Below are positions 8,924 to 37,650 of a stretch of 64,000 nucleotides of DNA, one piece after another (the first letter of the stretch is position 1; each line of letters begins with the position of its first letter). The stretch is from contig JAHQWH010000189.1 of assembly GCA_029856105.1 (NCBI GenBank), positions 1-64,000 of the forward strand. Reading direction: 5' to 3'. Under the pieces are notes generated by a model that saw only the letters and a list, made by a program, of their open reading frames with translations, had not been told where the DNA came from and did no database searches. A program made the position numbers and the translations under genes. Source of the stretch: Promethearchaeia archaeon (lineage in GTDB: Archaea; Asgardarchaeota; Lokiarchaeia; Sigyniarchaeales; SOKP01).

Positions 8924-10492
8924 ATGTTTGTTGCTGCATTAGATTTAGGAACAACTGGTTGTAGAACATTTATTTTTGATTTAGCTGGAACTATAATCGC
9001 AAGCGATTATCAAGAATGGGAGAGTTTCTACCCTACGCCTTCCTATGTGGAACAGGATGCTAATGTGTGGTGGAAATCAATTAAAAGTACGATTGAGCGA
9101 GCAATAAAGAAGAGCGGGGTAGATAAAAGCGAGATTGTAAGTTGCTCAATTACCAACCAAATTTCAGAAAATTAATTTCTGGAAGGTCAAAGAGAAACAA
9201 TCGTACCTGTTGATAAGGAAGGAACTCCATTACATAACGCATTAGTTTGGCAAGATAGACGGACAACTGAACAGGTAGACTTTATAAAAAATAAAATAGG
9301 AATAGATAAAATTTATAGTACTACGGGTTTAACAATAGATCCGTATTTTTCAGCTACAAAGATTCTTTGGTTTAAAGACGAAAAGCCAGACATCTATCAG
9401 AAAACACATAAATTCTTGCTAGTTTCAGATTTTATAATCTATAAACTAACAGGAAAATATGTTAGTGATTTTAGTAATTTAAGTAGAACGATGTTATTTG
9501 ATATAAATAAACTCAAATATTCAGAAGATATTGCCTCTGAGTTAGAAATAGATTTGGATAAAATGCCAGATGCTATTGAAAGCGGAGTTGATATAGGAGA
9601 GATCGCTACAGAAGAGACTTTATTCGATAAAAAAACCTTGGTTGTTACAGGAGCAGGAGACCAACAAGCAGCAGCCCTAGGAGTGGGCGTCGTCTCTCCT
9701 GGGAGGATAAAATTAACGACTGGAACTGGAAGCTTTATTTTAGCTTATTTGGAAAAACCCAATTTCGACCCACAAAAGCGAGTATTGTGTAGTTGTCACG
9801 CAATCCCGGGGGCTTGGATCCAAGAAGCGAGTATTTTTACAAGTGGAGCTTTTCTAAGGTGGTTTAGGGACCAACTCGGAAGAGATGAATGCATAAAGGC
9901 TGAAGAACAAAATCAAGATCCTTACGTAATTCTAACGGAAGAAGCTGAAAAGTCTCCTATTGGGGCTAATGGACTATTAGCAATCCCCCATTTAGTTGGT
10001 GCTGGAGCACCATATTGGAATCCATATGCGAGAGGAATAATATATGGTTTATCTTTAGGTCATAAAAGGAGAGATATCGTTAGAGCGATTCTTGAAGGAG
10101 TAGCATTTGAAGTTAAAAAGAACATTGAAGTTTTTGGAGAGTTAGGGATTGAAACAAAAGAATTAAGGCTAACTGGAGGAGGGTCTCGCTCAGATTTTTG
10201 GAATCAAATTTATTCCGATGTATTAGGTTTAACATGCGTCAGAAATCTTATTGAAGAGGCTACATCGTTGGGAGCAGCAATACTAGCGGCTACGGGAGCA
10301 GGTTTGTTTTCAGATATCGCTAAAGCTGCCGAAAATGTGTGTAAAGTAGAAAATAAATGGAATCCTGATTTAAACCGACATGAGTTTTATCAAGATATTT
10401 ACCAATTATCGAATGATTTATACAAGTATTTAAATGAGAAAAATTTTTACAAAACTTACATCAATACGCTTCAAAATAAAAAATTAGTTTAA
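8924..10492 (+). CDS. FGGY carbohydrate kinase (glycerol kinase/xylulokinase-like), join(8924..9160,9191..10492), 512 aa after removing the putative intron
   Basis: DLGTTGCR, TNQ|RET, WQDRR, DPYFSATK, GDQQAA, TTGTG, GAGAPYW and TGGG motifs. Both ORF-track pieces are in the same frame, separated only by the TAA inside the 30-nt insert. Confidence 0.9.
9161..9190 (+). other. Putative BHB-type (tRNA-like) intron in FGGY kinase mRNA, 30 nt
   Basis: AACC-AA^A-TTTCAGAAA-ATTAA-TTTCTGGAA-GGTC-AA^A: 9-bp inner stem, two 3-nt bulges, central helix with 3 of 4 pairs, in-frame TAA in the loop. Removal gives AAC CAA AGA GAA ACA = NQRET. Confidence 0.8.
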
Positions 10493-36987: not shown

Positions 36988-37650
36988 ATGCATGGCATTG
37001 ATAAAATATTTATTGAAACTAATGAAATTAGGCTTGAAGCCGAGTTTTTTCAGTTGAAAAACTCGGTTGTTTTAATTTGTCACCCACATCCTCAATTTTT
37101 CTGGGTTTGAAACCCTAAAAAGGGAAAATATGGGGGCAATATGTACAACAATGTCGTATCTGGCGTTTTTAATATGTGTGTTCAAAATAAAATTTCATGT
37201 TTACGGTTTAATTTCAGGGGAGTAGGAAGTTCAACAGGAAGTCATACTAGTGGAAAGGGCGAGTTAAGCGATGTGGAAGCTTGTATTGATTTTTTAATAA
37301 CCGAGAAAAATATTGAAAAAATAATAATTTGTGGTTATTCCTACGGCGCTGCTATCGGGTGTTCTGTTGTAAATTTTTCTAAGAAAATAATTGGTTATTG
37401 TGCAATTTCTTTTCCTTGGGATTTTATGGGCTCAAAATATAAAAAACTTTCTCAAACTAAAAAACCAAAATTGTTTATTCAAGGGAATCGAGATACTATA
37501 GCACTCTATGAAAATTTTGAAAACCATTATAATTTCTATTTCGAACCAAAAAAGTATAATATTATTAATGGAGCCGACCACTTTTACTCGGGATTTGAAG
37601 AAAATGTCGCACAAGAAGTAAGCGAATTCTACAATTCGATTACAAAATAA
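36988..37650 (+). CDS. Alpha/beta hydrolase, join(36988..37094,37128..37650), 209 aa after removing the putative intron
   Basis: The ATG at 36988 is in frame (MHGIDKIFIET...ICHPHPQ|YGGNMYNNVV). Also RFNFRGVG, nucleophile GYSYG, QGNRD and ADHF. Confidence 0.9.
37095..37127 (+). other. Putative BHB-type intron in alpha/beta hydrolase mRNA, 33 nt
   Basis: CCCACA-TCCT-CA^A-TTTTT.CT.GGGTT-TGA-AACCC.T.AAAAA-GGGA-AA^A-TATGGG: 4-bp helix TCCT/GGGA, two 3-nt bulges, inner and exon stems, in-frame TGA in the loop. Removal gives CCT CAA TAT GGG. Confidence 0.85.

What the first reader, a model, noticed from the sequence alone, without database searches (positions are those of the whole stretch)
37083..37134. 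Second, near-canonical hBHBh' intron inside an alpha/beta hydrolase gene
Seen: the ORF track starts this gene at 37141, but an in-frame N-terminus begins at ATG 36988. The family motif CHPHPQ-YGG is split by 33 nt (FFWV*NPKKGK). The predicted fold has exon stem CCCACA/TATGGG (5 of 6 pairs), central helix TCCT/GGGA (4 bp including one U-G), bulges CAA and AAA, and inner stems TTTTT/AAAAA and GGGTT/AACCC with the TGA stop as the apical loop. Canonical cuts at 37094/37095 and 37127/37128 give CCT CAA TAT GGG and a 209-aa enzyme with its Ser-Asp-His motifs. The insert sequence differs from the first one, so what is shared is structure, not sequence.
Basis: partly seen in the sequence, partly recalled or inferred. 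Interest (0 to 1): 0.95.

Follow-up and report, generated by a model that had tools for sequence, protein, structure and literature searches.

The report
tRNA-type mini-intron in Asgard hydrolase mRNA
A 33-base hairpin breaks an ordinary enzyme gene of a Loki-type Asgard archaeon. In every comparative test it behaves like a tiny intron cut out of the messenger RNA by the tRNA-splicing enzymes, and it is one of several in this genome, although such splicing is published for only two archaeal protein genes; RNA proof is still missing.

Summary
Observation confirmed. A 33-nt insert (37095-37127) with an in-frame TGA splits the HPHPQ-YGG motif, and removing it gives a 209-aa alpha/beta hydrolase. 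The fold alone is not beyond chance (z -1.5); the comparative evidence carries the case. 23 of 35 congener alleles and 47 metagenome contigs carry a 30-34-nt insert at this codon, always with a stop or frameshift; 12 alleles are intronless. The 4-bp central helix is invariant, the inner stem covaries, both exons are under purifying selection, and the exon Pro codon in the helix is frozen only in intron-bearing alleles. The genome encodes an (alpha-beta)2 EndA with the broad-specificity loop, and RtcB. Single-copy uL11 and elf1 are broken by frameshifting inserts of the same design. Intron-bearing alleles are not one clade, and one lineage gained the intron with about 40 nt of foreign 5' exon, so it moves by recombination. 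Best reading: an EndA/RtcB-spliced mRNA intron (0.9), one of a family-restricted multi-gene class. No reads could be examined. The scan already reported this same intron in at least five other genomes. New variant of the cbf5/HVO_1309 kind.

The parts
36988..37094 (+). Exon 1 of the alpha/beta hydrolase (ATG to the first two bases of the Gln codon of HPHPQ)
   Evidence: Open and ATG-started in all 23 intron-bearing alleles; dN/dS 0.21-0.43; the intronless ortholog aligns to PDB 3trd/2i3d from residue 14-15 through HPHP
37095..37127 (+). 33-nt BHB-type intron, hairpin with in-frame TGA at 37108-37110
   Evidence: Exact difference from intronless alleles; 30-34 nt in relatives
37089..37092 (+). 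Central helix, 5' strand (exonic; last base of His codon plus Pro codon CCT)
   Evidence: 4 of 4 pairs in 21 of 21 distinct rows; Pro codon fixed in 23 of 23 intron-bearing alleles but four codons among 12 intronless
37093..37095 (+). 5' bulge; predicted cut 37094/37095
   Evidence: Left unpaired in the RNAalifold consensus; cut position from the BHB rule (inference)
37096..37121 (+). Intron inner hairpin (h')
   Evidence: Compensatory changes at alignment pairs 20-41, 21-40, 23-38 and 25-37
37122..37125 (+). Central helix, 3' strand (intronic)
   Evidence: Invariant in 23 alleles; 4 of 4 pairs in all 30 distinct metagenome inserts
37126..37128 (+). 3' bulge; predicted cut 37127/37128
   Evidence: Closed by the invariant A37088-U37129 pair; cut position from the BHB rule (inference)
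37128..37650 (+). Exon 2, with nucleophile Ser (37339-41), Asp (37492-94) and His (37579-81)
   Evidence: Pfam Abhydrolase_1 and Abhydrolase_11 above cut-off; dN/dS 0.13-0.28; triad motifs in all 34 full-length alleles
37083..37088 (+). Exon helix (h), 5' strand; pairs with 37129-37134
   Evidence: 5 of 6 pairs here; 86.7% of cells paired across relatives
9161..9190 (+). Second insert of the same design in this window (30 nt, in-frame stop) in an FGGY-type kinase gene
   Evidence: Present in only 2 of 35 congeners, absent from four relatives at 93-94% identity

Best explanation
The insert is an mRNA intron of the bulge-helix-bulge type. The transcript folds so that the last four exon bases pair with four bases near the intron's 3' end, with a 3-nt bulge on each strand. 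The (alpha-beta)2 splicing endonuclease cuts after the second base of each bulge, RtcB joins the exons, and the 209-aa hydrolase is translated; unspliced RNA gives a 40-aa dead end. Shown: anatomy, conservation, selection and presence of the enzymes. Inferred: cleavage, ligation and cut positions. The intron is most likely a tolerated passenger that is gained and lost between lineages by short-patch recombination (history shown by tree and mosaic; mechanism inferred). It belongs to a class of about 20-38-nt inserts in several genes of this family.
For: Same-site insert in 23 of 35 congener alleles, always breaking the frame, and in 47 metagenome contigs at 30/31/32/33/34 nt. Central helix 100% paired; 91% of cells paired against 53-72% for registers slid by 1-2; 18 double-change cells, 0 of 500 shuffles as high. 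RNAalifold finds the central helix, 5' bulge and inner stem unprompted. The Pro codon in the helix is the only one of 21 conserved four-fold codons with a single codon in intron-bearing alleles. dN/dS well below 1 in both exons, triad intact. Codons between the 3' cut and the internal ATG vary synonymously, so they are translated. EndA alpha matches the A. pernix and S. tokodaii enzymes with the L1/CSL loop Lys and the Tyr-His-Lys triad; the second paralog lacks the His; RtcB lies on the same contig. Single-copy uL11 (32+29 nt) and elf1 (32 nt) carry frameshifting inserts of the same design.
Against: The BHB conformer lies 2.1 kcal/mol above the predicted MFE, with low central-helix probability, lower still at 15 C. 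The central-helix pairs never vary, so they give no covariation. The alleles are related, so shuffle counts overstate significance. The outer helix is relaxed in many relatives.
Confidence: 0.9

Rival explanations
1. Translational bypass or recoding: the ribosome reads through the stop or hops over the hairpin, and the RNA is not cut.
For: Here the insert is a multiple of 3 with a single TGA in a hairpin loop. Lokiarchaeia have selenocysteine machinery (own knowledge).
Against: Orthologs use TAA or TAG, at different positions, and lengths of 31, 32 and 34 nt. Take-off and landing codons do not match. Read-through would put 11 variable residues into the HPHPxxGG motif, which is contiguous in solved homologs.
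Confidence: 0.03
2. Split gene: a 40-aa peptide and a 169-aa protein started at ATG 37141 are made separately, and the hairpin is a regulatory or neutral spacer.
For: An in-frame ATG follows 13 nt after the insert, behind a G-rich run.
Against: That Met is part of the family motif and is a Leu codon in intron-bearing G017. The YGGN codons, which neither product would contain, evolve as translated codons. The idea cannot explain elf1, where the insert splits the Zn-ribbon CxxC.
Confidence: 0.03
3. DNA-level switch: the hairpin is deleted precisely between its 3-nt terminal repeats in part of the population, and only those cells make the enzyme.
For: A 3-nt repeat flanks a hairpin; precise intronless alleles exist inside intron-bearing clades (G012).
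Against: The elf1, first uL11 and C26 inserts have no terminal repeat. It does not explain the fixed 4-bp helix and 3-nt bulge geometry.
Confidence: 0.02
4. Pseudogene or assembly artefact.
For: The gene is probably dispensable; the genome is a MAG with 6% contamination.
Against: No other lesion in 22 full-length intron-bearing alleles (spliced 208-217 aa); dN/dS 0.13-0.43; many independent assemblies.
Confidence: 0.02

Closest known systems
cbf5 pre-mRNA intron of Desulfurococcales and Sulfolobales (Watanabe 2002; Yoshinari 2006; Yokobori 2009, PMC2738675)
   Same: Short (cbf5: 16-44 nt) BHB-bounded insert in a conserved motif of a protein-coding gene; patchy presence among relatives; (alpha-beta)2 EndA with the L1/CSL loop.
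   Different: Different gene and lineage (Asgard). Here there are at least eight inserts in seven genes of one genome and four polymorphic sites in uL11 alone, with signs of lateral gain rather than one gain and later losses. Splicing is proven for cbf5, not here.
HVO_1309 mRNA intron of Haloferax volcanii (review PMC10485636; PMC7714728)
   Same: [quoted passage not shown]
   Different: Homodimeric EndA, a single gene, a euryarchaeon.
Non-canonical tRNA introns of Asgard archaea (PMC11291895; bioRxiv 10.64898/2026.10.13.758758)
   Same: Same motif and enzyme; repeated gains; route of arrival unknown.
   Different: Those are in tRNA genes, richest in Jordiarchaeia and Atabeyarchaeia; the preprint never mentions mRNA. 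No second copy or donor of this intron was found in the genome.
Archaeal rRNA introns with homing endonucleases (discussed in PMC2738675)
   Same: BHB-spliced and laterally mobile; one-sided co-transfer of flanking exon is seen here in one lineage.
   Different: No ORF; no long version at this site among 47 metagenome and 23 genome copies.
Atu1826 / XC6422 / 3trd-type alpha/beta hydrolases (PDB 2i3d, 2fuk, 3trd)
   Same: Host protein family: contiguous HPHPxxGGxM motif and Ser-Asp-His.
   Different: Substrate unknown; the host gene is ordinary.

Membership tests
Archaeal BHB (EndA-spliced) pre-mRNA intron, cbf5 type | 4-bp central helix with a 3-nt bulge 3' of it on each strand, at the exon-intron borders | tested here: met
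   4 of 4 pairs in all alleles; borders fixed independently by intronless alleles (within a 3-nt repeat)
Archaeal BHB (EndA-spliced) pre-mRNA intron, cbf5 type | Flanking helices h and h' | tested here: met
   h' covaries; h has 5 of 6 pairs here and is relaxed in some relatives
Archaeal BHB (EndA-spliced) pre-mRNA intron, cbf5 type | Cuts after bulge position 2 restore a conserved ORF; unspliced RNA is non-functional | tested here: met
   Spliced 208-217 aa against unspliced 37-54 aa
Archaeal BHB (EndA-spliced) pre-mRNA intron, cbf5 type | Host encodes a broad-specificity EndA and an RNA ligase | tested here: met
   L1 loop reported for Asgard EndA in PMC5829648
Archaeal BHB (EndA-spliced) pre-mRNA intron, cbf5 type | BHB is the dominant fold of the free RNA | tested here: inconclusive
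   2.1 kcal/mol above the MFE, pair probability about 0.2
Archaeal BHB (EndA-spliced) pre-mRNA intron, cbf5 type | Spliced RNA exists in cells | not tested
Archaeal BHB (EndA-spliced) pre-mRNA intron, cbf5 type | Cleavage by EndA in vitro | not testable with these tools
   Bench assay
Homing-endonuclease-mobile archaeal intron | Intron-encoded endonuclease ORF | tested here: not met
   30-34 nt only; the genome's one LAGLIDADG_3 hit lies in an unrelated long ORF
Homing-endonuclease-mobile archaeal intron | Lateral spread with co-conversion of flanking exon | tested here: inconclusive
   One clear case (G013/G021) and non-monophyly; ordinary recombination at a conserved motif explains it equally well
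Group I / group II / spliceosomal intron | Ribozyme core, or GU-AG ends with a spliceosome | tested here: not met
   33 nt, a single hairpin, no GU...AG ends in any register

The most novel reading that the evidence does not exclude
One family of Lokiarchaeia (the SOKP01 / Loki_b31 group) uses its tRNA-splicing endonuclease and RtcB as a general mRNA-splicing system. Several genes per genome, including single-copy uL11 and elf1, carry site-tailored micro-introns that are still being gained, lost and passed between lineages without an endonuclease of their own: an independent, non-spliceosomal spread of mRNA introns in Asgard archaea.
Probability: 0.6. Interest if true: 0.92.

Novelty: new variant of a known kind. 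Interest (0 to 1): 0.82.

Why it matters
Archaeal mRNA splicing is documented, in the papers I could search, for two genes. A lineage of Asgard archaea with many spliced mRNAs, including a ribosomal protein and a transcription elongation factor, would show that intron-interrupted coding genes can spread in a prokaryote with coupled transcription and translation and no spliceosome. It gives recent, datable gains (the FGGY insert in 2 of 35 genomes; the G013/G021 hydrolase allele) for the open question of how BHB introns arrive. It also means gene callers truncate conserved proteins in these MAGs, which affects marker sets and gene inventories. The prediction is directly testable in sediment metatranscriptomes.

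Tried and rejected
Motif-only genome scans were noisy: no length peak over background, and the target itself was missed in its true register; they gave only leads (cobO, FGGY, C26, elf1). The genome contigs pattern scan was too loose, 7 true hits in 120. No donor or second copy of any insert was found in the genome. No long endonuclease-bearing version was found at this site, the one viral hit was chance, and no RVT_1 match was found in this 92%-complete genome. L372 first looked like intron-only transfer but is a recombinant or chimera of exon 1 against intron plus exon 2. The 29-nt FGGY rows L326-L329 and L348 are regex artefacts; those frames are open. The radA lead was not resolved: one paralog match ends at model position 265. 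Tocchini-Valentini 2011 was not held. No structure prediction was run, because the spliced protein has no reference.

Full report
Setting. The window is G000:C191:1-64000 of a 3.66-Mb MAG, 92% complete and 6% contaminated. Named records that carry the same intron are Promethearchaeota MAGs, among them Loki_b31 and the record SOKP01. The gene lies divergent from nadC and convergent with a Roadblock gene.

Observation. ATG 36988 opens a frame that reads through CHPHPQ, ten sense-or-stop codons with TGA at 37108, and on into YGGNM and an intact alpha/beta hydrolase. Removing 37095-37127 gives 209 aa. The fold by itself is unremarkable: z -1.53, the strict BHB is 2.1 kcal/mol above the MFE, and the central helix has probability about 0.2. 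A 3-nt terminal repeat makes four cut registers equivalent.

Orthologs. Of 35 alleles from the genus, 23 carry an insert at this codon (16 of 33 nt, 4 of 31 nt, 3 of 30 nt) and 12 are contiguous. Eleven orthologs from four sister genera have full-length open frames, and 15 loci from other families show no insert at this site. A metagenome pattern scan added 47 contigs with 30 distinct inserts of 30-34 nt; that pattern fixes the 5' end, so it can only find inserts that begin the same way. Every insert stops translation early (37-54 aa in the genome set), while the spliced frames are 208-217 aa with Ser-Asp-His motifs. dN/dS is 0.21-0.43 in exon 1 and 0.13-0.28 in exon 2 within intron-bearing clades. 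In the solved homologs 3trd and 2i3d the HPHPxxGGxM motif is contiguous and the exon-1 region is part of the aligned domain.

Structure under selection. On 21 distinct alleles the central helix is paired in 100% of cells and the inner stem shows changes on both sides; 91% of cells pair, against 53-72% for registers slid by one or two bases. RNAalifold recovers the central helix, the 5' bulge and the inner stem without a prior, but puts the outer helix in another register. The sequences are related, so these counts are not probabilities. A cleaner sign is on the exon side. The Pro codon that forms the central helix is CCT in all 23 intron-bearing alleles but takes four forms in the 12 intronless ones, and it is the only one of 21 conserved four-fold codons fixed in this way.

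Machinery. The genome has two EndA paralogs. One matches the catalytic subunits of A. pernix (E 3e-34) and S. tokodaii, including the loop with its Lys and the Tyr-His-Lys triad. The other lacks the His. That is the (alpha-beta)2 form with the L1 loop that cuts relaxed motifs outside tRNA (PMC5829648, PMC6379350, PMC2738675). RtcB is at C191:86017. Some tRNAs of this genome also carry introns.

Not a single case. Following leads from earlier scan notes and my own scans, I tested other genes. elf1 (single full-length copy, C191:74089) has a 32-nt insert inside the Zn-ribbon CxxC; 12 of 31 loci have 30-32-nt inserts there and 19 have none. uL11 (single copy, C16) has inserts of 32 and 29 nt; 19 of 30 congener loci carry 28-38-nt inserts at four different sites. 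Inserts also occur in uL11 of two sister genera, whereas the uL11 N-terminal domain gives a near-complete match in almost all Asgard genomes of other families searched (one fragment lies at a contig end). A motif-free census with about 680 G000 loci against congener proteins found five frame-breaking inserts with well-conserved flanks, all with a 4-of-4 central helix and an inner stem, plus a weaker 20-nt case. In-frame stop-free insertions mostly did not fit the motif. Four of the five inserts lie in genes chosen beforehand. The untargeted yield was one clear and one weak case per roughly 700 loci in each direction, suggesting of the order of 5-15 per genome; introns shared with the reference genomes are missed. 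The eight G000 inserts share no sequence: each 3' end is tailored to its own upstream exon.

History. On the exon tree the intron needs at least 4-5 changes, and a single intron clade is rejected (p-AU 8e-5 with sister genera). G013 and G021 (with intron) are about 90% identical to G019 and G029 (without) along the whole gene, except for the 12 codons just upstream of HPHP, where identity falls to 36%. The intronless pair keeps the patch typical of their wider clade, and the G013 intron is closest to that of the distant G006/G022 clade. The simplest reading is that intron and about 40 nt of 5' exon came in together. G012 looks like a precise loss with no such patch. The FGGY insert at window 9161 is a recent gain (2 of 35). 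Whether spread is driven, as in homing, or is ordinary recombination at the most conserved DNA of the gene cannot be told; L372 shows a breakpoint or chimera at the same place. No encoded endonuclease or reverse transcriptase was linked to it.

Mechanism and rivals. EndA cleavage and RtcB ligation explain the geometry, the free length, the obligatory stop or frameshift, the frozen exon codon and the uL11/elf1 cases together (0.9). Read-through or bypass fails on length and stop variation. Re-initiation fails because the ATG is a Leu codon in G017 and the intervening codons evolve as translated. DNA excision fails because several inserts have no terminal repeat. Pseudogene fails on dN/dS.

Novelty. 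The kind is known: cbf5 and HVO_1309 (PMC2738675, PMC10485636). Nine literature searches found no report of mRNA introns in Asgard archaea, and an October 2026 preprint on Asgard BHB introns treats only tRNAs; subscription journals are mostly not covered. This scan has already reported the same hydrolase intron in at least five other genomes; those notes are not independent evidence. Verdict: real, a new variant of a known kind, interest 0.82.

Noticed in passing
window 37038-37068: A perfect 13-bp hairpin (-15.3 kcal/mol) in exon 1, only in this genome, coinciding with a 12-nt in-frame deletion relative to close relatives; it looks like template-switch perfection of a quasi-palindrome, a possible model for how site-tailored hairpins arise.
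   Followed up: partly
window 9161-9190: 30-nt BHB-shaped insert with a stop in an FGGY-type kinase; present in only 2 of 35 congeners, so a recent gain.
   Followed up: yes
G000:C191:74089 (10 kb beyond the window): 32-nt frameshifting insert in the elf1 Zn ribbon, polymorphic in the genus.
   Followed up: yes
L187 (G000:C16:9747 and 9829): uL11 with two inserts; four polymorphic sites across the genus, up to three inserts in one gene (L196).
   Followed up: yes
G000:C161:49978 (minus): 29-nt insert splitting the cobO/btuR P-loop; found by motif scan, orthologs not checked.
   Followed up: partly
G000:C26:2544 (minus) and C10:60290 (plus): Very stable 30-nt BHB insert in a gene of about 394 aa; the same stretch is on two contigs, probably a duplicate assembly. 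A long ORF with a LAGLIDADG_3 match lies about 2.5 kb away.
   Followed up: partly
G000:C10:15788 (minus); L285:17247: 20-21-nt insert in the CxGNxARS loop of a low-molecular-weight phosphatase / ArsC-like gene, with a weak BHB fit; shared with G018.
   Followed up: partly
L285:3476 (G018:C17): 33-nt BHB-shaped insert with a stop in a gene of about 415 aa that is intronless in G000.
   Followed up: no
   Followed up: no
L372 (Ga0209121_10000149): Hydrolase allele with exon 1 from one lineage and intron plus exon 2 from this genome's lineage: recombinant or chimeric assembly.
   Followed up: partly
L010 and L154 (G010): Two intronless copies of the hydrolase in one MAG, one grouping with genus g18: contamination or transfer.
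   Followed up: no
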